This document shows, piece by piece, positions 39,389 through 47,082 of a stretch of DNA of 64,000 bases (its first letter is position 1; the number at the start of each line of letters is the position of its first letter). The notes beneath the pieces are model-generated. The model saw nothing but the letters and a program-made list of their open reading frames with translations. It was not told the origin of the DNA and did not search any database. Where the stretch lies: contig CAIXFY010000009.1 in the NCBI GenBank assembly GCA_903918885.1, forward strand, positions 9,472 to 73,471. The letters are read 5' to 3'. Position numbers and translations under genes: made by a program. Source of the stretch: an uncultured Verrucomicrobia subdivision 3 bacterium. GTDB lineage: Bacteria; Verrucomicrobiota; Verrucomicrobiia; Limisphaerales; UBA11358.

Positions 39389-39748
39389 TCAGGAACCCTT
39401 CGCGGCCTCGATGAGTTGCCAGAACTTCGGGTTTTCCTGCAAAGCCTGATCTTCGCCGACCTTGATGCCGGAGCGGAAGAAAAAATCCTTTAGCGTGTGC
39501 CGGCTCATGACGCGATGGACAAGCACGCCGAGCGGATGGCGTTCAAAATAAACCCGGTAATCGCCGACGCGGAAGCGGTGGAGGATGTGGCCGTCGCTTT
39601 CCAGCTTGCCGAAATCTTCCAGTTCGCTGCCGACGACCTGCTGCGGCAGACCGCGAAAGTCACCGAGAATTTGCAGTTGCAGTTCCTTCGGCATCCGTGC
39701 CAGTTCGGACGCGGCGGTCGGGGTGAAGATGATTTGAAACGCGGTCAT
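39389..39748 (-). CDS. RelE/ParE-superfamily toxin-like protein with C-terminal extension; no adjacent antitoxin
   Basis: FQIIFTPTAASELARMPKELQLQI...HRFRVGDYRVYFERHPLGVLVHRV follows the RelE/ParE pattern (..YR.RVGDYR[IV]xY..), followed by ~35 extra residues. Confidence 0.5.
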   Translation of the reverse strand: MTAFQIIFTPTAASELARMPKELQLQILGDFRGLPQQVVGSELEDFGKLESDGHILHRFRVGDYRVYFERHPLGVLVHRVMSRHTLKDFFFRSGIKVGEDQALQENPKFWQLIEAAKGS

Positions 39749-39807
39749 GTTGTCTTGAGGAAAATTATAGGGCGTGAACGCGGCGGAGTTCAACTCTTCA
39801 TTGTGGT

Positions 39808-40951: not shown

Positions 40952-40990
40952 GAAAATAAAAACGGCGCGAAGAAAATTCTTCGCGCCGTT
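40952..40990 (-). terminator. Intrinsic terminator ending the riboswitch-controlled operon
   Basis: Perfect palindrome AACGGCGCGAAGAA/TTCTTCGCGCCGTT (40961-40990), with a TTTATTTTC tract on the minus strand. Confidence 0.8.
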
Positions 40991-41011
40991 TGTTTTGTCC
41001 CCACAAATTAT

Positions 41012-41296
41012 TTAACCAGCAATCACGCCGAGATCCACCGGTTCCACGTTCACGCCTTGTTTCTCCAGCCAGGTGATGGCCTTGGCCACTTCGCCGTGGG
41101 TGCCGTCCAGTTCCAGACAGACAATGCCGATTTCATCGGTGATCGTGGCTTGCCGGATGTTTGTCACGACCTTGAATTTCTTGGCGACTTCCCAGATGAA
41201 CGGCTTCTTGATGAGCTTGGGCGGATACATCAGCCACAGGCGCTGCTGCGTGGGTGAAGTGGATTTCGTCGCCGGTGATTTTTTCTTGGTGGCCAT
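41012..41296 (-). CDS. Stand-alone NIL-domain protein
   Basis: LWLMYPPKLIKKPFIWEVAKKFKVVTNIRQATITDEIGIVCLELDGTHGEVAKAITWLEKQGVNVEPV matches the NIL (MetN C-terminal-like) pattern. Start taken at the internal ATG (41296). Confidence 0.7.
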   Translation of the reverse strand: MATKKKSPATKSTSPTQQRLWLMYPPKLIKKPFIWEVAKKFKVVTNIRQATITDEIGIVCLELDGTHGEVAKAITWLEKQGVNVEPVDLGVIAG

Positions 41297-41326
41297 AATA
41301 AAATAAGAGTTCAGTTGGTGATTGGT

Positions 41327-41377
41327 GTAGCGTTCGGCCTGTGGCCGAACCAAGTCGAGCCACAGGCTCGACGCTAC
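41327..41377. repeat. Bracketed double-hairpin REP-like element (copy 2, variant)
   Basis: GTAGCG-[TTCGGCC tgt GGCCGAA]-ccaag-[TCGAGCC aca GGCTCGA]-CGCTAC, lying between the carrier and NIL genes. Confidence 0.75.
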
Positions 41378-41380
41378 AGC

Positions 41381-41656
41381 CTAGCCTCCCGCGATCGCCG
41401 GGATGATGCTGATTTCGTCTCCGTCTTTGAGCGGCGTCTCGCGGTTTTTGAGGAAGCGGATGTCCTCCTCGTTGACATAGACGTTGACGAAGCGGCGCAC
41501 CTCGCCTTTTTCATCCACGAGGCGTTCCTGGATGCCGGGGAAGCGCGTCTGCAATTCGACGAGCGCCTCGCCGATGGTGGCGGCGTTGATTTCGATGAGC
41601 TCCTCGTTGTTGGTCAACTTGCGGAGCGGCGTGGGGATGCGGACTTTTTTTGGCAT
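41381..41656 (-). CDS. MoaD/ThiS/CysO-type sulfur-carrier protein (C-terminal Gly-Gly)
   Basis: 91 aa with a beta-grasp pattern, ending ..DGDEISIIPAIAGG immediately before the stop. Confidence 0.85.
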   Translation of the reverse strand: MPKKVRIPTPLRKLTNNEELIEINAATIGEALVELQTRFPGIQERLVDEKGEVRRFVNVYVNEEDIRFLKNRETPLKDGDEISIIPAIAGG

Positions 41657-41666
41657 AAATTAAATT

Positions 41667-42131
41667 TTAATTTTTTGATTTCTCTGAAGTCGTGCGAACC
41701 GGAAATTGCGCTGTAACTTTTTCTAGCTCTCGAACAGATGTCCCCAATTGTGACTGGTCAAATTGCAAAGTAAAGTTGAGACGATTTCCAATTCCTGCTT
41801 GGTCTGCAACTTCGCCGCGAAGTTCAATGTGTCCTTTGCCATCGCCATTTAATCGCAAACTCAATTGCTCTTCTAAAGTTGTAAATGTTGCTGTCCCATT
41901 TAGCTTTTCGTGAAGCGCTTTAAGCTCCGATAAAAACTTCTCCAATTCACTCGTGATAATTGTGGCAGACGCTTTGCCGCGAAATCCGCCTGCACGAATA
42001 CTGATTTCCACATTTAGCCAATTATCGTCCCAATATTCTCCAACCGGTGCACGTTCATAATTGAGCACATTGATTTCAATGCGCTCATTCTCCGATTGGC
42101 CGAACGAAAATGGTGTGCCGTAGTTACGCAT
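41667..42131 (-). CDS. Hypothetical 154-aa protein, AT-rich gene inside the operon
   Basis: Uninterrupted ORF whose start overlaps the upstream stop by 8 nt. Its composition is clearly AT-richer than its neighbours. No known motif recognised with confidence. Confidence 0.6.
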   Translation of the reverse strand: MRNYGTPFSFGQSENERIEINVLNYERAPVGEYWDDNWLNVEISIRAGGFRGKASATIITSELEKFLSELKALHEKLNGTATFTTLEEQLSLRLNGDGKGHIELRGEVADQAGIGNRLNFTLQFDQSQLGTSVRELEKVTAQFPVRTTSEKSKN

Positions 42132-43383
42132 TCACTTTTTCTTCATGCGCCAGCAGCGCCTCGAACTCGCGCAGGCTCGGCTTGATTTCGCGCGGTTTGC
42201 CGCAATGACCTTGCACGGCGTCGAGCGTCTTCAATCCGTTGCCGGTAACGCAGATGACGGCAGAAGAATCGCGGGGGATTTTCCCAGACGCAATGAGTTT
42301 CTTCGCCACGCCCACGGTCACGCCGCCGGCGGTCTCGGCAAAAATGCCTTCCGTCTCGGCCAGTAGCTTGATCGCGTCGCGGATTTCGTCGTCGGTCACG
42401 TCGTCGGCTGCGGCGCTGGTTTCGCGCATCACCTTGAGCGCGTAAAAACCGTCGGCGGGCGTGCCGATGGCGAGCGACTTCGCAATCGTGTCGGGCTTCA
42501 CCGGCTTGAAGAAATCGAGTCCGGCCTTTTGCGCGACGGAAATCGGCGAACAGCCCGTGGCCTGCGCGCCGTGGATGTGCGTCTCGGAATTCGCGACGAG
42601 GCCGAGCTTCATAAATTCCTGGTAGCCCTTGTGGATTTTCGTCAGCAACGAGCCGCTTGCCATCGGCACGATCGTGTGCTGCGGCAGCCGCCAGCCGAGT
42701 TGCTCGGCGATCTCATACGCCATGCTCTTGGAGCCTTCGGCGTAGTAGGGACGCATATTGACGTTCACAAACGCCCAGCCGAATTTGCCGGCGATCTCGG
42801 CGCAGAGACGGTTCACTTCGTCGTAATGGCCTTTGATGCAAATGACGTTCGCGCCGTAGATGAGCGAATTCAAAATTTTGCCCTGTTCCAAATCCGACGG
42901 AATGAAAACGTAAGATTTTAATCCCGCACTCGCGGCGTTGGCAGCGACGGAGTTGGCCAGATTTCCCGTGGACGCGCACGCGACAGTTTCAAAACCAAGT
43001 TCCTTCGCGCGGATCAAGGCGACACTGACAACACGGTCTTTGAACGAGAGCGTGGGATAATTCACCGCGTCGTTCTTGACGTAGAGTTCGCGGATGCCGA
43101 GAGCCTTCGCGAGGCGGTCGGCCTTTACGAGCGGCGTGAAACCGACGAGCGGGCCAACGGTCGGCTCGCCCGCGATGGGCAGCAGCTCGCGATAACGCCA
43201 CATGGTCTTCGGGCGCGACTCGATGGCCGTTTTGGTCAGCGATTTTTTGATGCGGTCGTAATCGTAGGCGACTTCGAGCGGGCCGAAGTCGAATTCGCAC
43301 ACGTGCGTGGCCTCGAGCGGATATTCGCGCGCACACTCGCGGCACTTGAGCGCCTTCATGAACCCTTGATGCTTTTCACTCAT
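42124..43383 (-). CDS. Threonine synthase-family PLP enzyme (ThrC paralogue; possible O-phosphohomoserine-dependent homocysteine synthase)
   Basis: PLP-lysine motif PTLSFKDR, Gly-rich PLP loop, and an N-terminal Cys-rich ribbon (CRECAREY...HVCE). Sits directly behind a SAM-I riboswitch. Confidence 0.9.
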   Translation of the reverse strand: MSEKHQGFMKALKCRECAREYPLEATHVCEFDFGPLEVAYDYDRIKKSLTKTAIESRPKTMWRYRELLPIAGEPTVGPLVGFTPLVKADRLAKALGIRELYVKNDAVNYPTLSFKDRVVSVALIRAKELGFETVACASTGNLANSVAANAASAGLKSYVFIPSDLEQGKILNSLIYGANVICIKGHYDEVNRLCAEIAGKFGWAFVNVNMRPYYAEGSKSMAYEIAEQLGWRLPQHTIVPMASGSLLTKIHKGYQEFMKLGLVANSETHIHGAQATGCSPISVAQKAGLDFFKPVKPDTIAKSLAIGTPADGFYALKVMRETSAAADDVTDDEIRDAIKLLAETEGIFAETAGGVTVGVAKKLIASGKIPRDSSAVICVTGNGLKTLDAVQGHCGKPREIKPSLREFEALLAHEEKVNA

Positions 43384-43395
43384 AATAAATTATTT

Positions 43396-43461
43396 GGTAG
43401 GGCGGCGTTGCTGCGCCGCCCAAATTTTTCCACGAAGGCCGAGCGGCAGCTCGGCCCTACC
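43396..43461. repeat. Bracketed double-hairpin REP-like element (copy 3)
   Basis: GGTAGGG-[CGGCG ttgctg CGCCG]CC-caaatttttccacgaa-[GGCCGAGC ggca GCTCGGCC]-CTACC, located in the leader between the riboswitch terminator and the ThrC-like start. Confidence 0.75.
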
Positions 43462-43479
43462 GGGTTTGATCCGGGTAAC

Positions 43480-43645
43480 AAAAAAGCCCCGACTCACAAG
43501 GAGAAGGGGCCACAAAACGGTTGTGCTCTTCTCATTTTTTCCCAAGCTAATGATGCTCGAGCTGGAATTGGCACCTGTCATTGAAATTAAATTCAATCGG
43601 TTGCCGTGGTGTCAGCGGGCCAGTCCCTCAACCACTCTTTATGAG
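43480..43645 (-). ncRNA. SAM-I (S-box) riboswitch with terminator/antiterminator expression platform
   Basis: The minus strand reads CUCAUAAAGAGUGGUUGAGGGACUGGCCCGCUGACACCACGGCAACC...GACAGGUGCCAAUUCCAGC...AAAAAAUGAG. That matches the conserved SAM-I core and the P1 closure. A GGCCCC...GGGGC stem plus UUUUUU follows at 43511-43480. Confidence 0.87.
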
Positions 43646-44016
43646 TCCGTCAAATCAACGGATGCGGATAGATTGATGCTTAAAGATAAAAAGTCAAATG
43701 GAATTTTCTTGGCGAACAAAGCGCGTCAAAAATGTTGTCCACCGGCGGAGAATAAGTCGCGCATTTTTAATCAGGGCGGGACAATTGCCTTGATTCTATT
43801 TGTGAATAACGATTGCGTAACTTTTTTGTAAAATATTCTTGAAACATACAACCAGTGGTATCATCATGGCGTCCGTTCCCCAATTAGTAGGGGGGATGGC
43901 AATTTTAGCAAAAAACCCGTTTTTCTGTTGAAATTGATTGTTTTTGTGTTCCGGCAGGTTCTGTCTCGCTTGAAGCTGACCGGGTGAATGTTTGAAAATT
44001 AAACCTGGAGATTACC

Positions 44017-47000
44017 ATGATTGATGCCCGTGAAGATGTCTTGTCCCCGGCTCCCAAGGCCGCCAACCGCCGCACCCCCAAAGTTTCCGCGACCCGCGCC
44101 ATGAAACCTACCAAATCCGAAGCTAAAAAGTCGTTGCGCATTGAGCGCGTTTTCAGCGACGCAAAAGTGAAGCCGTTCGACCAGATTGAATGGGATAAGC
44201 GCACCGCCGAAATCACCGACGATGGCGGCAAAGTGATTTTCAAACAGGAAAACGTCGAGGTGCCGAAGTCCTGGTCCGTGCTCGCCACGAAAGTGGTCGT
44301 CTCGAAATATTTTTACGGCGAGCAGCACACCAGCGAGCGCGAAACTTCTGTGCGCCAGCTCATCCATCGCATCACGCGGACGATTTCCGATTGGGGTATT
44401 GCGGATGGTTATTTCTCCAAGGCGGACGGTGAAATTTTCTATGAAGAACTCACTTGGCTCTGTCTAAACCAATACGGCGCGTTCAACTCGCCCGTCTGGT
44501 TTAACGTCGGCTTGTATCACGAATACGGCATCGGCAAAAATTCCAGCAAGGGCAACTGGTTTTACAACCGCCAGACCAAAGTCGCCGAACGCGCCGCGAC
44601 GCAATACGAATACCCGCAGGGCAGCGCGTGCTTCATCCAATCCGTGCAGGATAATATGGAAGACATTATGCACCTCGCCTACAGCGAAGCGATGTTGTTC
44701 AAGTATGGTTCCGGCACCGGCACCGATTTGACGCCGATTCGTTCCAGCCGCGAAAAATTGAGCGGTGGCGGTCGTCCAAGCGGTCCGATGAGTTTCCTAA
44801 AAGTTTATGATCAGGTCGCCAACGTCGTGAAGTCCGGCGGTAAAACCCGCCGCGCCGCAAAGATGAATACGCTCCGCGACTGGCACGGCGACATTGAAGA
44901 ATTTATTGACGCCAAGCAGAAGGAAGAGAAGAAGGCGTGGGCATTGATCGAGCAGGGTTATGACGGTTCTTACAACGGCGATGCCTACGGCAGCGTAATG
45001 TATCAAAACGAAAATCTTTCCGTGCGTGCGAGCGATGAATTTTTTGAAGCCGCCCTGTCCGGCAAGGAATGGTGGACGAAGAGCGTCAAAGGCATTCCGC
45101 TCCAGAAGAAGGACGCGAGCACGTTGCTGGATAAAATTGCCCAAGGCACGCACATCTGCGGCGACCCCGGCATCCAATACGACGGCGCGATCCAGAAATG
45201 GCACACGTGCAAAGGCACCGAGCCGATTCACTCCACGAATCCGTGCAGCGAATACGTTTTCGTCAATAACACCGCGTGCAATCTCGCGTCGCTGAACTTG
45301 ATGAAGTTCAAGCGCGACGACAACAAGTTCGACGTGGACCGCTTCAAAGCCGCGTGCCGCATCTTCATCACCGCGCAGGAAATTCTCGTGGACAACGCGA
45401 GCTATCCGACGAAGGACATCGCGGAAAATTCCCACATCTTCCGCACGCTCGGCCTCGGCTTCGCGAACCTCGGTTCGCTCTGCATGAGCTACGGTTTGCC
45501 CTACGATTCCGACGAAGGCCGCGCGCTCGCCGGGGCGATCACGTCCATCATGACGGGTCACGCCTACGAACAGAGCGCGGACATCGCCGCGAACATCGGC
45601 GCGTTTGCTGGTTACCGCGATGCGCGTTGCGCCGGTGTTGCGAAGACGGTGGCGAAGGACAACGTCGAATCCATGCTCGGCGTCATCAAGCTCCACCGCG
45701 ACGCCGTGGAAACAATCCAGCCGAGCGCGGAATTTAATTATCTCAAGACCGAAGCCCGCAAAACGTGGGATAGCGCGCTCGCCAAGGGCAAGCAACATGG
45801 CTACCGCAACGCGCAAGTCACCGTGCTTGCGCCGACCGGCACCATCGCCTTCCTCATGGATTGCGACACCACCGGCGTGGAGCCTGACATCGCGCTGGTG
45901 AAATACAAATTGCTCGCCGGCGGCGGCATGTTGAAGATCGTTAATCGCGGCGTGCCGGACGCGTTGCACCGCCTTGGTTACAGCGAAGCGAACGTTACCA
46001 AGATCATCGCGCACATCGAGAAGTTCGACACGATTGAAGACGTCGAAGAAAATGGCCAGACCATTACCAGCGGCCTCAAGCCGGAACATCTGCCGATCTT
46101 CGATTGCGCCTTCAAGCCCGCCCGGGGCACGCGTAGCATCGGTTACATGGCGCACTTGAAGATGATGGCCGCTGCGCAGCCGTTCATCAGCGGCGCGATT
46201 TCCAAGACAGTCAACATGCCCAGCGAATGCACCGTCGCTGACATCCGCGACACCTATGTGCAGGCGTGGAAAATGGGCTTGAAATGCGTGGCGATTTATC
46301 GCGACGGCTCCAAGCGCTCCCAGCCGCTCAACACTAAAAAGACCAATGAAGCCGGTGACAAAACTGCCGTTGCCCCCGCGCTCGACGCCCGCATCAAGGA
46401 ACTCGAAGCGCAGGTCGAACAATTGCAGGACGAATCCGGCAAGCCGCTGCGCCGCCGTTTGTCCGACACGCGCACGGCCGTCACGCACAAGTTCGACATT
46501 GCTGGCCACGAAGGTTATCTCACTGTCGGCCTGTTTGATGATCACCAGCCCGGCGAATTGTTCATCACCATGGCCAAGGAAGGTTCCACCATCGGCGGTT
46601 TGATGGACAGCATCGGCACGCTCACCAGCATGGCGCTCCAATACGGCGTGCCGCTGGAAGCGCTCGTCAAGAAATTCGCGCACCAACGCTTCGAGCCGAG
46701 CGGCTTCACCAAAAATCCGGAAATCCGCAACGCCGCGTCCATCACCGACTACGTGTTCCGCTGGATGGCGTTCCAGTTCATTCCCGGCTACCGCGAAAAC
46801 ATCACCGCCGCGCGCAATCAACCGGAACTCGTCATGCCCGGCCTCGCCGAGGAGATAAAAAAAAAGGTGAACCGGCCCGTGGCTGACCTGCCGATTTCCG
46901 AAGACACGGATTTGATCGAGCTCAAGGCCAGTCAGAAGCATGAGCGCCGCGCGGCATCGCTCACGCAGATGATTACGAATCAGCAGGACGCCCCGACGTG

Positions 47001-47082
47001 TCCGAACTGCGGCAACGTCGTTGTCCGCAACGGCGCGTGCTACAAATGTTTGAACTGCGGCGAAAGCCTCGGTTGCTCGTAA
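44017..47082 (+). CDS. nrdJ: Adenosylcobalamin-dependent (class II) ribonucleotide reductase
   Basis: 1021 aa. Active-site region HSTNPCSEYVFVNNTACNLASLNL, and a C-terminal Zn ribbon CPNCGNVVVRNGACYKCLNCG typical of NrdJ. Confidence 0.92.
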   Translation: MIDAREDVLSPAPKAANRRTPKVSATRAMKPTKSEAKKSLRIERVFSDAKVKPFDQIEWDKRTAEITDDGGKVIFKQENVEVPKSWSVLATKVVVSKYFYGEQHTSERETSVRQLIHRITRTISDWGIADGYFSKADGEIFYEELTWLCLNQYGAFNSPVWFNVGLYHEYGIGKNSSKGNWFYNRQTKVAERAATQYEYPQGSACFIQSVQDNMEDIMHLAYSEAMLFKYGSGTGTDLTPIRSSREKLSGGGRPSGPMSFLKVYDQVANVVKSGGKTRRAAKMNTLRDWHGDIEEFIDAKQKEEKKAWALIEQGYDGSYNGDAYGSVMYQNENLSVRASDEFFEAALSGKEWWTKSVKGIPLQKKDASTLLDKIAQGTHICGDPGIQYDGAIQKWHTCKGTEPIHSTNPCSEYVFVNNTACNLASLNLMKFKRDDNKFDVDRFKAACRIFITAQEILVDNASYPTKDIAENSHIFRTLGLGFANLGSLCMSYGLPYDSDEGRALAGAITSIMTGHAYEQSADIAANIGAFAGYRDARCAGVAKTVAKDNVESMLGVIKLHRDAVETIQPSAEFNYLKTEARKTWDSALAKGKQHGYRNAQVTVLAPTGTIAFLMDCDTTGVEPDIALVKYKLLAGGGMLKIVNRGVPDALHRLGYSEANVTKIIAHIEKFDTIEDVEENGQTITSGLKPEHLPIFDCAFKPARGTRSIGYMAHLKMMAAAQPFISGAISKTVNMPSECTVADIRDTYVQAWKMGLKCVAIYRDGSKRSQPLNTKKTNEAGDKTAVAPALDARIKELEAQVEQLQDESGKPLRRRLSDTRTAVTHKFDIAGHEGYLTVGLFDDHQPGELFITMAKEGSTIGGLMDSIGTLTSMALQYGVPLEALVKKFAHQRFEPSGFTKNPEIRNAASITDYVFRWMAFQFIPGYRENITAARNQPELVMPGLAEEIKKKVNRPVADLPISEDTDLIELKASQKHERRAASLTQMITNQQDAPTCPNCGNVVVRNGACYKCLNCGESLGCS

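What the first reader, a model, noticed from the sequence alone, without database searches (positions are those of the whole stretch)
41012..43645. SAM-I riboswitch driving a ThrC-paralogue / GG-tailed sulfur carrier / NIL-domain operon: candidate thiocarboxylate-dependent homocysteine (methionine) pathway
Seen in the sequence: the minus strand from 43645 to 43531 carries the invariant S-box core (GAGGGACUGGCCC..CUGA..GGCAACC...GGUGCCAAUUCC...AUGAG closing P1 with CUCAU). A GC stem plus U6 follows at 43511-43480. The 5' flank of that stem (CUUCUC) can alternatively pair with the P1 3' strand (GAGAAG), which gives classic terminator/antiterminator logic. The transcript then encodes four proteins. 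The first is a 419-aa threonine-synthase-family PLP enzyme (SFKDR). The second is a 154-aa unknown. The third is a 91-aa beta-grasp protein ending in AIAGG. The fourth is a 94-aa NIL-domain protein. The operon stops at a strong terminator (40990-40952). Established knowledge: SAM-I riboswitches gate Met/Cys/SAM genes. MoaD/ThiS/CysO-type GG tails carry sulfur as thiocarboxylates. ThrC chemistry acts on O-phosphohomoserine. NIL domains occur in MetN and in NIL-ferredoxin proteins tied to homocysteine synthesis. Inference: this is a SAM-repressed route making homocysteine from O-phosphohomoserine plus carrier thiocarboxylate. It resembles the ThrC-like/sulfur-carrier (MetM/MetO-type) pair I recall being reported in Streptomyces, which I could not verify here. 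It differs in having an additional NIL partner, an inserted unknown ORF, and no E1-like activase or JAMM protease in cis.
Basis: partly seen in the sequence, partly recalled or inferred. Interest (0 to 1): 0.8.

Follow-up and report, generated by a model that had tools for sequence, protein, structure and literature searches.

The report
SAM-repressed MetM/MetO-like homocysteine operon with NIL
A soil Verrucomicrobium carries a SAM-riboswitch-controlled operon that most likely makes the methionine precursor homocysteine with a threonine-synthase-like enzyme and a sulfur-carrier protein, a route found in Streptomyces in 2024, here with a conserved extra small NIL-domain protein and an unrelated immunity gene inserted in the middle.

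Summary
RF00162 (SAM-I) matches 43647-43529 (-) at 70.8 bits (gathering 44.4). A terminator/antiterminator follows, then four co-directional ORFs and a strong terminator.

In 80 related Limisphaerales loci, riboswitch and terminator precede the ThrC-like gene in all 78 loci with enough upstream DNA. The order ThrC-like, ThiS-like, NIL holds in 66 of 68 informative loci.

The 419-aa enzyme is not a canonical threonine synthase. Ten positions invariant in five solved ThrCs, including T88, S155, R160 and N188 (T. thermophilus numbering), are replaced across its clade. Members 40-58% identical elsewhere lie beside ThiS-like carriers, a ThiF-rhodanese E1, sulfite reductase, NIL proteins or SAM-I riboswitches. 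Nonomuraea has riboswitch, ThrC-like (57%) and a GG carrier (49%), the layout reported for S. albulus metM/metO.

The carrier is CysO-like. The NIL protein keeps the Asn that binds methionine in E. coli MetN.

The "unknown" 154-aa ORF is a WapI-like immunity gene of low GC, one of many cargos (toxin-antitoxin, immunity and other genes) at a hotspot between the two genes.

It is a variant of the known MetM/MetO pathway. The NIL partner is the new element; I found no report of it. No biochemistry was possible.

The parts
43529..43647 (-). SAM-I (S-box) riboswitch aptamer. P1 is formed by 43645-43641 pairing with 43535-43531.
   Evidence: RF00162 at 70.8 bits (gathering 44.4), E = 1.5e-14, full-length model match. 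The same aptamer lies upstream of the orthologous gene in 78 of 78 loci with enough upstream sequence. The five P1 pairs are kept in 78-79 of 79 distinct leaders.
43480..43533 (-). Expression platform. The antiterminator strand GAGAAG (43533-43528) competes with the terminator hairpin (43510-43486) for CUUCUC (43506-43501). A U6 tract follows at 43485-43480.
   Evidence: The unconstrained fold (-55.4 kcal/mol) shows the antiterminator. The P1-forced fold (-52.7 kcal/mol) shows the terminator. A hairpin plus U5-8 is present in 78 of 78 loci. The pairs are kept in 76-79 of 79 leaders, with a few compensatory changes.
42124..43383 (-). ThrC-family PLP enzyme of 419 aa: a MetM-like candidate thiocarboxylate-dependent homocysteine synthase. 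It has a Zn-ribbon-like N-terminus (C14, C17, C29, D32) and the Schiff-base Lys in SFKDR.
   Evidence: PF00291 at 1.5e-67. TIGR00260 at 277 bits, above its 167 cutoff; PRK08197 at 285 bits, below its 303 cutoff. Nearest solved structures are short ThrCs at about 1e-55, which lack residues 1-60. Ten clade-specific substitutions at positions invariant in solved ThrCs. 57% identical to the Nonomuraea riboswitch-linked paralogue.
41667..42131 (-). WapI-like immunity-family protein of 154 aa. It is horizontally acquired cargo inserted between the enzyme and carrier genes, and is not part of the pathway.
   Evidence: PF24716 at 1.6e-32, 113 bits against a cutoff of 27. GC is 0.40-0.44 against 0.56-0.63 in the flanks. 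Homologues are present in only 2 of the 80 related loci. The same junction holds unrelated cargo, including toxin-antitoxin and immunity genes, in 41 of 68 loci. Its ATG overlaps the ThrC-like stop (ATGCGTAA), and it ends 10 nt before the carrier ATG.
41381..41656 (-). CysO/MetO-type sulfur-carrier protein of 91 aa. The C-terminus AIAGG is followed directly by the stop codon, so no processing is needed.
   Evidence: PF02597 at 3e-18. TIGR01687 at 55.6 bits, above its 49.5 cutoff. Best solved relatives are CysO of A. orientalis (4n6e_B, 3e-20) and of M. tuberculosis (3dwg_C, 1.8e-19). 49% identical to the Nonomuraea carrier that sits beside the ThrC-like gene.
41012..41296 (-). Stand-alone NIL-domain protein of 94 aa with no ferredoxin domain. 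It is the conserved third gene of the module and a candidate methionine/homocysteine-binding accessory subunit.
   Evidence: PF09383 at 1.4e-12. It aligns to the E. coli MetN C2 domain at residues 271-339 (3dhx_A, 5.5e-4). The Asn equivalent to MetN N295 is invariant in 64 of 64 distinct orthologues. It follows the carrier in 66 of 68 loci, at a spacing of 3-261 nt. NIL also follows clade members in L086 and L089.
40952..40991 (-). Intrinsic terminator that ends the operon.
   Evidence: 14-bp stem with 8 GC pairs at 40991-40960, followed by TTATTTT.

Best explanation
This is a self-contained, SAM-repressed homocysteine (methionine) biosynthesis module of the MetM/MetO type.

Regulation. When SAM is scarce, the leader folds into an antiterminator and the operon is transcribed. 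When SAM binds the aptamer, P1 forms. This frees CUUCUC to complete the terminator hairpin, and transcription stops before the first gene. The RNA elements are shown; the switching itself is predicted.

Chemistry (inferred).
- The ThrC-like PLP enzyme takes O-phosphohomoserine and eliminates phosphate.
- It does not add water at C-beta as ThrC does. Instead it accepts the C-terminal thiocarboxylate of the 91-aa CysO-like carrier at C-gamma.
- This yields homocysteine, either directly or through a carrier-homocysteine adduct.
- The carrier is charged by a MoeZ/ThiF-rhodanese E1 encoded elsewhere in the genome.
- Because the carrier gene ends in GG-stop, no maturation protease is needed.

NIL protein (inferred, weaker). 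The 94-aa NIL protein is a third component. By analogy with the MetN C2 domain it most likely binds methionine or homocysteine. It would then give protein-level feedback on, or assist product hand-off from, the enzyme-carrier pair.

The 154-aa WapI-like gene is a passenger.
For: Shown in the sequence:
- SAM-I aptamer at 70.8 bits.
- Mutually exclusive terminator and antiterminator folds.
- Both are conserved in 78 of 78 related loci, with pairs kept in 76-79 of 79 leaders.
- The riboswitch-ThrC-like-ThiS-NIL order is conserved in 66 of 68 informative loci, while the flanking genes are not syntenic.

Shown for the enzyme:
- Its clade differs from five solved ThrCs at M65V, T88L, F134Y, S155N, N157R, R160Y, Q164S/A, G187A, N188S/G and A240S.
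- This signature holds in about 50 representatives of 50%-identity clusters, down to about 40% identity.

Shown in contexts from other lineages:
- Nonomuraea: SAM-I, then ThrC-like (57% identical), then a GG carrier (49% identical).
- Micromonosporaceae: SAM-I, then ThrC-like.
- L084: SAM-I, ThrC-like, ThiS.
- L088: ThrC-like, ThiS, ThiF+rhodanese.
- L090: SAM-I, ThrC-like, sulfite reductase.
- L086 and L089: NIL partners.

Other support:
- The carrier's closest solved relatives are CysO proteins.
- Literature: the MetM (ThrC homologue) + MetO-thiocarboxylate + O-phosphohomoserine pathway in S. albulus (cited in 10.1101/2024.10.14.618325). metM there has a SAM riboswitch (PMC12172450).
- NIL: MetN N295 hydrogen-bonds L-Met and N295A abolishes binding (PMC6233128). 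The equivalent Asn is invariant here.
- NIL/ferredoxin proteins are required for a different homocysteine pathway (PMC5764234).
Against: - No biochemistry or genetics was possible. Substrate, product and carrier use are all inferred.
- The S. albulus MetM sequence could not be obtained, so orthology rests on actinobacterial relatives with the same layout.
- NCBI's thrC model TIGR00260 still scores the protein above its cutoff.
- I could not check whether these genomes hold a second, canonical thrC.
- No E1, JAMM hydrolase, homoserine kinase or any other met gene lies in the 64-kb window.
- The functional roles I assign to ThrC residues T88, S155, R160 and N188 (phosphate pocket) come from my memory of Omi et al. 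2003 and Murakawa et al. 2011. I could not re-read these papers.
- If the pocket no longer binds phosphate, the substrate could be something other than O-phosphohomoserine.
- For NIL the only evidence is conserved linkage and one conserved ligand-contact residue.
Confidence: 0.72

Rival explanations
1. The 419-aa protein is the cell's ordinary threonine synthase. Its neighbourhood with a ThiS-like gene and a NIL gene is incidental.
For: TIGR00260 thrC scores 277 bits, above its cutoff of 167. All public sources name the orthologues 'threonine synthase'. Its nearest solved structures are ThrCs.
Against: - A SAM riboswitch that shuts off the only threonine synthase would starve the cell of threonine whenever SAM is high, yet it is conserved in 78 of 78 loci.
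- Ten positions invariant in solved ThrCs are replaced across the whole clade.
- The clade is linked to carriers, an E1 and sulfite reductase in unrelated lineages.
- The GapMind authors state that MetM is often misannotated as threonine synthase.
Confidence: 0.05
2. The enzyme-carrier pair makes cysteine or another thio-amino acid rather than homocysteine. It would work like CysM/CysO, for example from O-phosphoserine.
For: The carrier's best solved relatives are CysO proteins, which work with CysM. SAM-I riboswitches also control some cysteine and sulfur genes (general knowledge). The remodelled pocket leaves the substrate open.
Against: The enzyme belongs to the ThrC family, not the CysK/CysM family. 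The only characterised ThrC-like partner of such a carrier (MetM) uses O-phosphohomoserine and gives homocysteine. NIL domains occur in methionine and homocysteine contexts.
Confidence: 0.1
3. The ThrC-like enzyme uses free sulfide (or methanethiol) directly. The carrier and NIL proteins then serve a separate function such as sulfur storage, sulfur relay or protein modification.
For: In Micromonosporaceae, L090 and L091 the enzyme gene has no adjacent carrier. L090 pairs it with sulfite reductase, a source of sulfide.
Against: Carrier genes are adjacent in 5 of 10 non-Limisphaerales contexts and in 68 of 80 Limisphaerales loci. An E1 gene lies in cis in L088. S. albulus MetM is described as MetO-thiocarboxylate-dependent.
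Confidence: 0.1
4. The NIL protein is not a ligand sensor. It is instead a structural adaptor or sulfur-relay partner, for example docking the carrier onto the enzyme or onto an E1. That would match its unexplained role next to DUF39 in the other homocysteine pathway.
For: NIL/ferredoxin is genetically required for homocysteine synthesis with DUF39, and its molecular role there is unknown (PMC5764234). NIL recurs with the ThrC-like clade even without an adjacent carrier, as in L089 with its tandem double NIL.
Against: The Asn that contacts methionine in MetN is invariant in 64 of 64 orthologues, which fits ligand binding. The protein has no Fe-S motif and only one Cys, so redox or persulfide chemistry is unlikely.
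Confidence: 0.25

Closest known systems
MetM/MetO thiocarboxylate pathway of Streptomyces albulus (Hasebe et al. 2024, as cited in bioRxiv 10.1101/2024.10.14.618325 and PMC12172450)
   Same: A ThrC-homologous enzyme is paired with a ThiS/CysO-type sulfur carrier, and a SAM riboswitch lies upstream of the enzyme gene. An actinobacterial relative with exactly this layout (Nonomuraea) is 57% identical for the enzyme and 49% for the carrier.
   Different: - It occurs in Verrucomicrobiota (Limisphaerales).
- A conserved third gene encodes a stand-alone NIL protein, which is absent from the three actinobacterial loci examined.
- The carrier ends in GG-stop, so the Mec-dependent maturation listed for MetO is not needed.
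- No MoeZ or Mec gene lies in cis.
- The enzyme-carrier junction is an insertion hotspot.
- The S. albulus sequences themselves were not available for comparison.
CysM/CysO/Mec cysteine pathway of Mycobacterium tuberculosis (PDB 3DWG)
   Same: The carrier is a close homologue of CysO (1.8e-19) with the same VAGG/IAGG tail. It uses the same logic: a fold-type II PLP enzyme accepts a protein thiocarboxylate.
   Different: The enzyme belongs to the ThrC family, not the CysM (CysK-like) family. The expected substrate is O-phosphohomoserine, not O-phosphoserine. There is no JAMM hydrolase gene nearby.
HcyS/HcyF/HcyD/MetY thiocarboxylate-dependent homocysteine synthesis of Wolinella succinogenes (Krishnamoorthy and Begley 2011, from memory)
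   Same: Homocysteine sulfur is delivered by a ThiS-like protein thiocarboxylate. Sulfite reductase linkage is seen in one clade member (L090).
   Different: The PLP enzyme there is MetY (O-acetylhomoserine sulfhydrylase, Cys_Met_Meta_PP family), and the activated homoserine is acetylated. Here the enzyme is ThrC-like.
DUF39 + NIL/ferredoxin (MA1821/MA1822, DvMF_1464/DvMF_0262) homocysteine pathway (PMC5764234)
   Same: A NIL-domain protein is genetically tied to homocysteine formation.
   Different: There is no DUF39 and no ferredoxin domain. The NIL protein here is 94 aa with the NIL domain alone, and the partner enzyme is unrelated. Public annotation of the orthologues as 'L-aspartate semialdehyde sulfurtransferase ferredoxin' is therefore unsupported.
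C2 (NIL) regulatory domain of the E. coli methionine importer MetN (PDB 3DHW/3DHX/3TUZ; PMC6233128)
   Same: It has the same domain family, and the methionine-contacting Asn (N295) and A299 are conserved. It suggests feedback sensing of methionine.
   Different: The protein is free-standing, not fused to an ABC ATPase. Its target would be a biosynthetic enzyme or carrier rather than a transporter.

Membership tests
SAM-I riboswitch (Rfam RF00162) | Covariance-model score at or above the curated gathering score, over the full four-helix model | tested here: met
   70.8 bits against 44.4, model positions 1-108 of 108, E = 1.5e-14
SAM-I riboswitch (Rfam RF00162) | Expression platform in which P1 formation and an antiterminator are mutually exclusive, followed by an intrinsic terminator | tested here: met
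   Alternative folds at -55.4 and -52.7 kcal/mol. The terminator is present in 78 of 78 loci, and the helices are kept in 76-79 of 79 leaders.
SAM-I riboswitch (Rfam RF00162) | SAM binding and SAM-dependent termination | not testable with these tools
   Needs in-line probing or single-round transcription assays
MetM (ThrC-like, MetO-thiocarboxylate-dependent homocysteine synthase) | Fold-type II PLP enzyme homologous to threonine synthase, with the Schiff-base lysine | tested here: met
   PF00291 at 1.5e-67, with the SFKDR motif aligned to K61 of T. thermophilus ThrC
MetM (ThrC-like, MetO-thiocarboxylate-dependent homocysteine synthase) | Sequence orthology to the characterised S. albulus MetM | tested here: inconclusive
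   The S. albulus sequence and the primary paper were not obtainable. As a proxy, the protein is about 53-57% identical to actinobacterial riboswitch-linked paralogues (Nonomuraea 57%; Micromonosporaceae 53%). All carry the same 10-position signature.
MetM (ThrC-like, MetO-thiocarboxylate-dependent homocysteine synthase) | Genetic linkage to a GG-tailed sulfur-carrier gene (metO) | tested here: met
   The carrier lies downstream in 68 of 80 related loci and in L083, L084, L086, L087 and L088
MetM (ThrC-like, MetO-thiocarboxylate-dependent homocysteine synthase) | SAM riboswitch upstream, as reported for S. albulus metM | tested here: met
   the S. albulus report is in PMC12172450
MetM (ThrC-like, MetO-thiocarboxylate-dependent homocysteine synthase) | Catalyses O-phosphohomoserine + carrier-COSH to homocysteine | not testable with these tools
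   Needs an enzyme assay
Canonical threonine synthase (ThrC) | Match to the curated thrC model | tested here: met
   TIGR00260 at 277 bits, above its 167 cutoff. PRK08197 at 285 bits, below its 303 cutoff.
Canonical threonine synthase (ThrC) | Residues invariant in solved ThrCs around the substrate phosphate: T88, S155, N157, R160, Q164, G187, N188 (T. thermophilus numbering; roles recalled from memory) | tested here: not met
   These are L, N, R, Y, S, A, S in the window protein and throughout its clade
Canonical threonine synthase (ThrC) | It is the genome's only thrC and is needed for threonine | not testable with these tools
CysO/MetO-type sulfur-carrier proteins (ThiS/MoaD superfamily) | Beta-grasp ThiS-family domain with a C-terminal Gly-Gly | tested here: met
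   PF02597 at 3e-18. The protein ends AIAGG-stop. CysO structures match at 3e-20 and 1.8e-19.
CysO/MetO-type sulfur-carrier proteins (ThiS/MoaD superfamily) | Adenylation and thiocarboxylation by a ThiF/MoeZ-type E1 | not testable with these tools
   No ThiF or rhodanese gene lies in the window. An E1 gene lies in cis in the related locus L088.
NIL domain (PF09383), MetN-C2-like ligand-binding type | Domain match, and conservation of the Asn that hydrogen-bonds L-methionine (MetN N295) | tested here: met
   PF09383 at 1.4e-12, alignment to MetN residues 271-339, Asn invariant in 64 of 64 orthologues. The role of N295 is taken from PMC6233128.
NIL/ferredoxin (MA1822-type, 'L-aspartate semialdehyde sulfurtransferase ferredoxin') | NIL domain fused to a 4Fe-4S ferredoxin domain, partnered with DUF39 | tested here: not met
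   The protein is 94 aa with a NIL domain only and a single Cys. No DUF39 gene lies in the window.
WapI-like immunity proteins (PF24716) | Domain match above the gathering score | tested here: met
   113 bits against a cutoff of 27
WapI-like immunity proteins (PF24716) | Adjacent cognate polymorphic toxin gene | tested here: not met
   Its neighbours are the ThrC-like and carrier genes. No toxin domain was found in the window scans. It is therefore an orphan immunity gene.

The most novel reading that the evidence does not exclude
The stand-alone NIL protein is a genuine third subunit of thiocarboxylate-dependent homocysteine synthesis. It would act as a methionine/homocysteine-sensing brake on, or a product or sulfur hand-off adaptor for, the MetM-like enzyme and its carrier. 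That would give the NIL domain one common job across MetN transinhibition, the DUF39/NIL-ferredoxin pathway and this pathway. It would also provide a minimal three-protein system in which the NIL function, unexplained in the DUF39/NIL-ferredoxin pathway (PMC5764234), can be tested directly. A second unexcluded novelty is that the enzyme-carrier junction is a dedicated capture site. There, diverse small genes (toxin-antitoxin, immunity and others) are inserted precisely and in the same orientation, which puts them under SAM-riboswitch control.
Probability: 0.3. Interest if true: 0.7.

Novelty: new variant of a known kind. Interest (0 to 1): 0.5.

Why it matters
- **Wider reach of the pathway.** The finding extends the recently discovered O-phosphohomoserine/thiocarboxylate route to methionine from Actinomycetota to abundant, uncultured soil and peat Verrucomicrobiota.
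- **A practical annotation tool.** A 10-residue signature separates MetM-like enzymes from true threonine synthases. Public databases currently call all of them 'threonine synthase', and call the NIL partner 'ferredoxin' or 'ABC transporter ATPase'. Such errors distort predictions of threonine and methionine prototrophy in metagenome-assembled genomes.
- **A new component.** A small NIL protein is identified as a conserved third member of the module. The molecular role of NIL is still unknown in the DUF39 homocysteine pathway, so this compact system could make the question testable.
- **An unusual hotspot.** The insertion hotspot shows selfish or defence-related genes sitting inside a riboswitch-controlled biosynthetic operon.

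Tried and rejected
- **Primary paper and MetM sequence.** I tried to obtain the MetM/MetO paper (Hasebe 2024) by DOI and it is not held. The supplements of PMC12172450 hold no MetM sequence. Direct comparison with S. albulus MetM was therefore impossible.
- **ThrC residue roles.** I tried to verify the phosphate-pocket roles in Murakawa 2011 and Petronikolou 2019. Neither is held, and a full-text search found nothing usable. These roles are flagged as recalled from memory.
- **NIL profile search.** A search with a NIL profile returned only close Limisphaerales orthologues and no new contexts.
- **Plasmid collection.** Searching for Streptomyces homologues gave only a Nonomuraea chromosome filed as a plasmid (which proved useful) and distant haloarchaeal thrC genes.
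- **Integron cassette idea.** I rejected this for the 154-aa ORF. The ORF overlaps the upstream stop codon and ends 10 nt before the next start, so there is no room for an attC site.
- **The 154-aa ORF as a pathway component.** I rejected this. Homologues are in 2 of the 80 related loci, its GC is foreign, and the same slot holds unrelated cargo elsewhere.
- **Conserved wider synteny.** I looked for it (aminotransferase, Na/Ca exchanger, ribonucleotide reductase). It is not conserved beyond the closest relatives.
- **Cysteate synthase and threonine dehydratase.** Their models score far below cutoff.
- **Second thrC or E1 in Limisphaerales genomes.** I could not search for these because only +/-6 kb per genome was retrievable.

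Full report
**1. Observation**

- Rfam's only hit in the 64-kb window is RF00162 (SAM-I) at 43647-43529 on the minus strand. It scores 70.8 bits against a gathering score of 44.4, E = 1.5e-14, over the full model.
- Downstream lies the hairpin GCCCCuuCUC-CUUGU-GAGucGGGGC (43510-43486), followed by U6 (43485-43480).
- Four co-directional ORFs follow:

| ORF | Coordinates | Pfam hit | Note |
|---|---|---|---|
| 419 aa | 43383-42124 | PALP 1.5e-67 | SFKDR motif |
| 154 aa | 42131-41667 | WapI 1.6e-32 | |
| 91 aa | 41656-41381 | ThiS 3e-18 | ends AIAGG-stop |
| 94 aa | 41296-41012 | NIL 1.4e-12 | |

- A terminator with a 14-bp stem (40991-40960 plus a T-run) closes the unit.
- The organism is a subdivision-3 Verrucomicrobium (Limisphaerales), judged from the names attached to near-identical proteins and loci.

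**2. Riboswitch mechanism**

- The unconstrained fold of the leader (-55.4 kcal/mol) pairs GAGAAG, the 3' flank of P1, with CUUCUC, the 5' arm of the terminator. It also pairs the P1 5' strand with the terminator's 3' side.
- Forcing P1 gives a fold at -52.7 kcal/mol in which the terminator forms.
- The 2.7 kcal/mol gap is of a size that ligand binding could plausibly offset. The architecture is that of a transcriptional OFF switch.
- In 80 related loci fetched from GTDB species genomes, the aptamer lies upstream of the ThrC-like gene in all 78 that hold enough upstream sequence. All 78 have the hairpin plus U5-8.
- In 79 distinct leaders, the P1, terminator and GAGAAG:CUUCUC pairs are kept in 76-79 sequences, with a few compensatory changes such as A-U to C-G in four.
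- The RNA elements are shown. SAM responsiveness is predicted.

**3. The module is conserved and self-contained**

- The ThrC-like, ThiS-like, NIL order holds in 66 of the 68 loci that reach far enough downstream.
- The flanking genes (Na/Ca exchanger, aminotransferase, class II ribonucleotide reductase) are shared only by the closest relatives.
- The carrier-to-NIL spacer is always short (3-261 nt) and never holds extra genes.

**4. The enzyme is not a canonical threonine synthase**

- NCBI's thrC model scores it above cutoff (TIGR00260, 277 against 167). PRK08197 does not (285 against 303). Every public source calls it threonine synthase.
- Its nearest solved structures are the short ThrCs of Aquifex, Bacillus, Thermus and Mycobacterium (about 1e-55). 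These lack the first 60 residues, a Zn-ribbon-like CxxC...CxxD/C segment.
- I aligned it with five solved ThrCs and with ten clade relatives. Ten columns are invariant in the ThrCs and different in the whole clade: M65V, T88L, F134Y, S155N, N157R, R160Y, Q164S/A, G187A, N188S/G and A240S (T. thermophilus numbering).
- I recall T88, S155, R160 and N188 as the pocket that holds the substrate phosphate. ThrC needs that phosphate to direct water to C-beta (Omi 2003, Murakawa 2011). I could not re-read these papers.
- The signature persists in about 50 of 74 full-length representatives of 50%-identity clusters, down to about 40% identity. The canonical signature reappears in the solved ThrCs and one distant representative.

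**5. What the clade does elsewhere**

I looked up the genomic context of representatives.

| Locus | Identity to window enzyme | Context |
|---|---|---|
| L081, L082 (Micromonospora; Micromonosporaceae MAG) | 53% | SAM-I (69 and 77 bits), then the enzyme alone |
| L083 (Nonomuraea gerenzanensis) | 57% | SAM-I (68.7 bits), enzyme, 91-aa carrier ending AVAGG (49% identical), then groEL |
| L084 | 54% | SAM-I (71.5 bits), enzyme, ThiS |
| L086 | 58% | enzyme, ThiS, NIL |
| L087 | 51% | enzyme, ThiS |
| L088 | 52% | enzyme, ThiS, ThiF+rhodanese E1 |
| L089 | 42% | enzyme, then a tandem double-NIL protein |
| L090 | 45% | SAM-I (66.4 bits), enzyme, sulfite reductase |
| L091 | 44% | no partners |

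This pattern points to a sulfur-incorporating enzyme that responds to methionine status.

It matches the S. albulus pathway. There MetM, a ThrC homologue often misannotated as threonine synthase, converts O-phosphohomoserine to homocysteine with MetO-thiocarboxylate. MoeZ and Mec act as helpers (10.1101/2024.10.14.618325). The metM gene has an upstream SAM riboswitch (PMC12172450).

**6. Carrier**

- The 91-aa protein's best solved relatives are CysO of Amycolatopsis orientalis (4n6e_B, 3e-20) and of M. tuberculosis (3dwg_C, 1.8e-19). Both are thiocarboxylate carriers that work with PLP enzymes.
- It ends in GG-stop, so no C-terminal processing is required.

**7. NIL protein**

- It aligns with the C2 regulatory domain of E. 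coli MetN, residues 271-339.
- In MetN, L-methionine bound at the C2 dimer interface hydrogen-bonds N295, and N295A abolishes binding (PMC6233128).
- The equivalent Asn (in TNIRQA) is invariant in 64 of 64 distinct Limisphaerales orthologues and is present in L086. A299 is also kept.
- The protein has no ferredoxin domain. Public labels such as 'ferredoxin' or 'L-aspartate semialdehyde sulfurtransferase ferredoxin' are therefore unfounded.
- NIL/ferredoxin proteins are required, in an unknown way, for the unrelated DUF39 homocysteine pathway (PMC5764234).
- The simplest reading is a methionine/homocysteine-binding accessory that gives protein-level feedback or assists hand-off. This step is inferred, and I give it roughly 0.35-0.4.

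**8. The 154-aa ORF is a passenger**

- It is a WapI-like immunity-family protein (113 bits against a cutoff of 27).
- Its GC is 0.40-0.44, against 0.56-0.63 in its neighbours.
- Homologues occur in only 2 of the 80 related loci.
- Among the 68 loci, the enzyme-carrier gap is under 100 nt in 27 and 0.3-4.6 kb in 41.
- The inserts encode PIN, HEPN/nucleotidyltransferase, ParE, Phd/YefM, HigA-like, WapI, Imm32 and other small proteins.
- About 80% of the insert ORFs are co-oriented, and the first often starts at or overlapping the enzyme's stop codon.
- The right-hand junction keeps the sequence AAATTTAATTT-ATG. One locus (L074) shows a 33-nt duplication of the enzyme's 3' end.
- There is no room for integron attC sites.
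- In the window the passenger must be co-transcribed with the operon and is therefore SAM-regulated.

**9. What is missing**

- Pfam scans of about 60 window ORFs found no ThiF/MoeZ, rhodanese, JAMM, second PALP/ThrC, homoserine kinase or other met genes.
- Whether the genome has a separate thrC could not be tested, because only +/-6 kb of each related genome was available.
- A SAM-repressed sole threonine synthase would be physiologically perverse. That argues indirectly for a paralogue.

**10. Verdict**

- The system works like, and most probably belongs to, the MetM/MetO thiocarboxylate pathway. Confidence is 0.72 for the pathway assignment. Membership by direct orthology to S. albulus MetM is untested.
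- It is not categorically new. The pathway, its riboswitch control and its wide distribution are already reported.
- What I found no report of (the primary paper was not available to me):
  - the conserved stand-alone NIL third gene, seen in Limisphaerales and in at least two other lineages;
  - the residue signature that separates MetM-like enzymes from ThrC;
  - the cargo hotspot inside the operon.
- I rate it a new variant of a known kind, with interest 0.5.

Noticed in passing
window 41657-42131 (junction between the ThrC-like and carrier genes); L002-L080 at the equivalent junction: This is an insertion hotspot. In 41 of 68 related loci, 0.3-4.6 kb of variable and mostly co-oriented small genes sit exactly between the ThrC-like stop codon and the conserved AAATTTAATTT-ATG of the carrier. 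The genes include PIN, HEPN/MNT, ParE, Phd/YefM, HigA-like, WapI, Imm32 and DUF4279. L074 carries a 33-nt duplication of the ThrC-like 3' end at the right junction. The insertion mechanism is unknown.
   Followed up: partly
window 43384-43480: Between the riboswitch terminator and the start codon lie three further GC-rich hairpins: CCGGAUCAAACCCGG, GGCCGAGCUGCCGCUCGGCC and GGGCGGCGCAGCAACGCCGCCC. The distance from the aptamer end to the start codon varies from 76 to 218 nt among related loci, so this stretch is variable. Its role is unknown (REP-like element, RNA stability or translation control). There is no obvious Shine-Dalgarno sequence before the ATG.
   Followed up: no
L019, L020, L025, L043, L064, L069, L073, L075, L078, L032, L034: These GenBank MAG records are titled 'uncultured Bifidobacteriaceae/Bifidobacterium', 'Dongiaceae' or 'Candidatus Aquilonibacter'. 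They nevertheless carry this verrucomicrobial locus at 86-95% amino-acid identity. The bins are probably mislabelled or contaminated.
   Followed up: no
L083 (NZ_LT559118.1): The 11.85-Mb Nonomuraea gerenzanensis chromosome is filed as 'plasmid I' in PLSDB with almost no gene table. It holds a textbook SAM-I, ThrC-like, GG-carrier locus next to groEL.
   Followed up: yes
P0413-P0532 (orthologues of window 41012-41296): The 93-96-aa NIL-only proteins are named inconsistently by public sources. The names include 'ferredoxin', 'ABC-type methionine transport system ATPase subunit', 'L-aspartate semialdehyde sulfurtransferase ferredoxin' and 'NIL domain-containing protein'.
   Followed up: partly
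window 43296-43342 (residues 14-32 of the ThrC-like protein): In the N-terminal Zn-ribbon-like motif, the fourth ligand is Asp in Limisphaerales (C14-x2-C17...C29-x2-D32). Most other clade members have CxxC...CxxC.
   Followed up: no
window 39389-39793 (-): This 134-aa ORF has no Pfam hit at 1e-4, but contains a ...HRFRVGDYRVYFERH... stretch that I recall as typical of RelE/ParE-type toxins. It is conserved next to the Na/Ca-exchanger gene in 6 related loci. Its identity was not verified.
   Followed up: no
window 44017-47082 (+): A class II (B12-dependent) ribonucleotide reductase with a C-terminal TSCPD domain and a terminal CxxC...CxxC motif is transcribed divergently from the riboswitch operon. 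No cobalamin riboswitch or other Rfam family was found in the window.
   Followed up: no
L089 6960-7535: A 191-aa protein made of two tandem NIL domains follows a 42%-identical ThrC-like gene, with no carrier gene in between. NIL linkage to this enzyme clade therefore does not depend on an adjacent carrier.
   Followed up: partly
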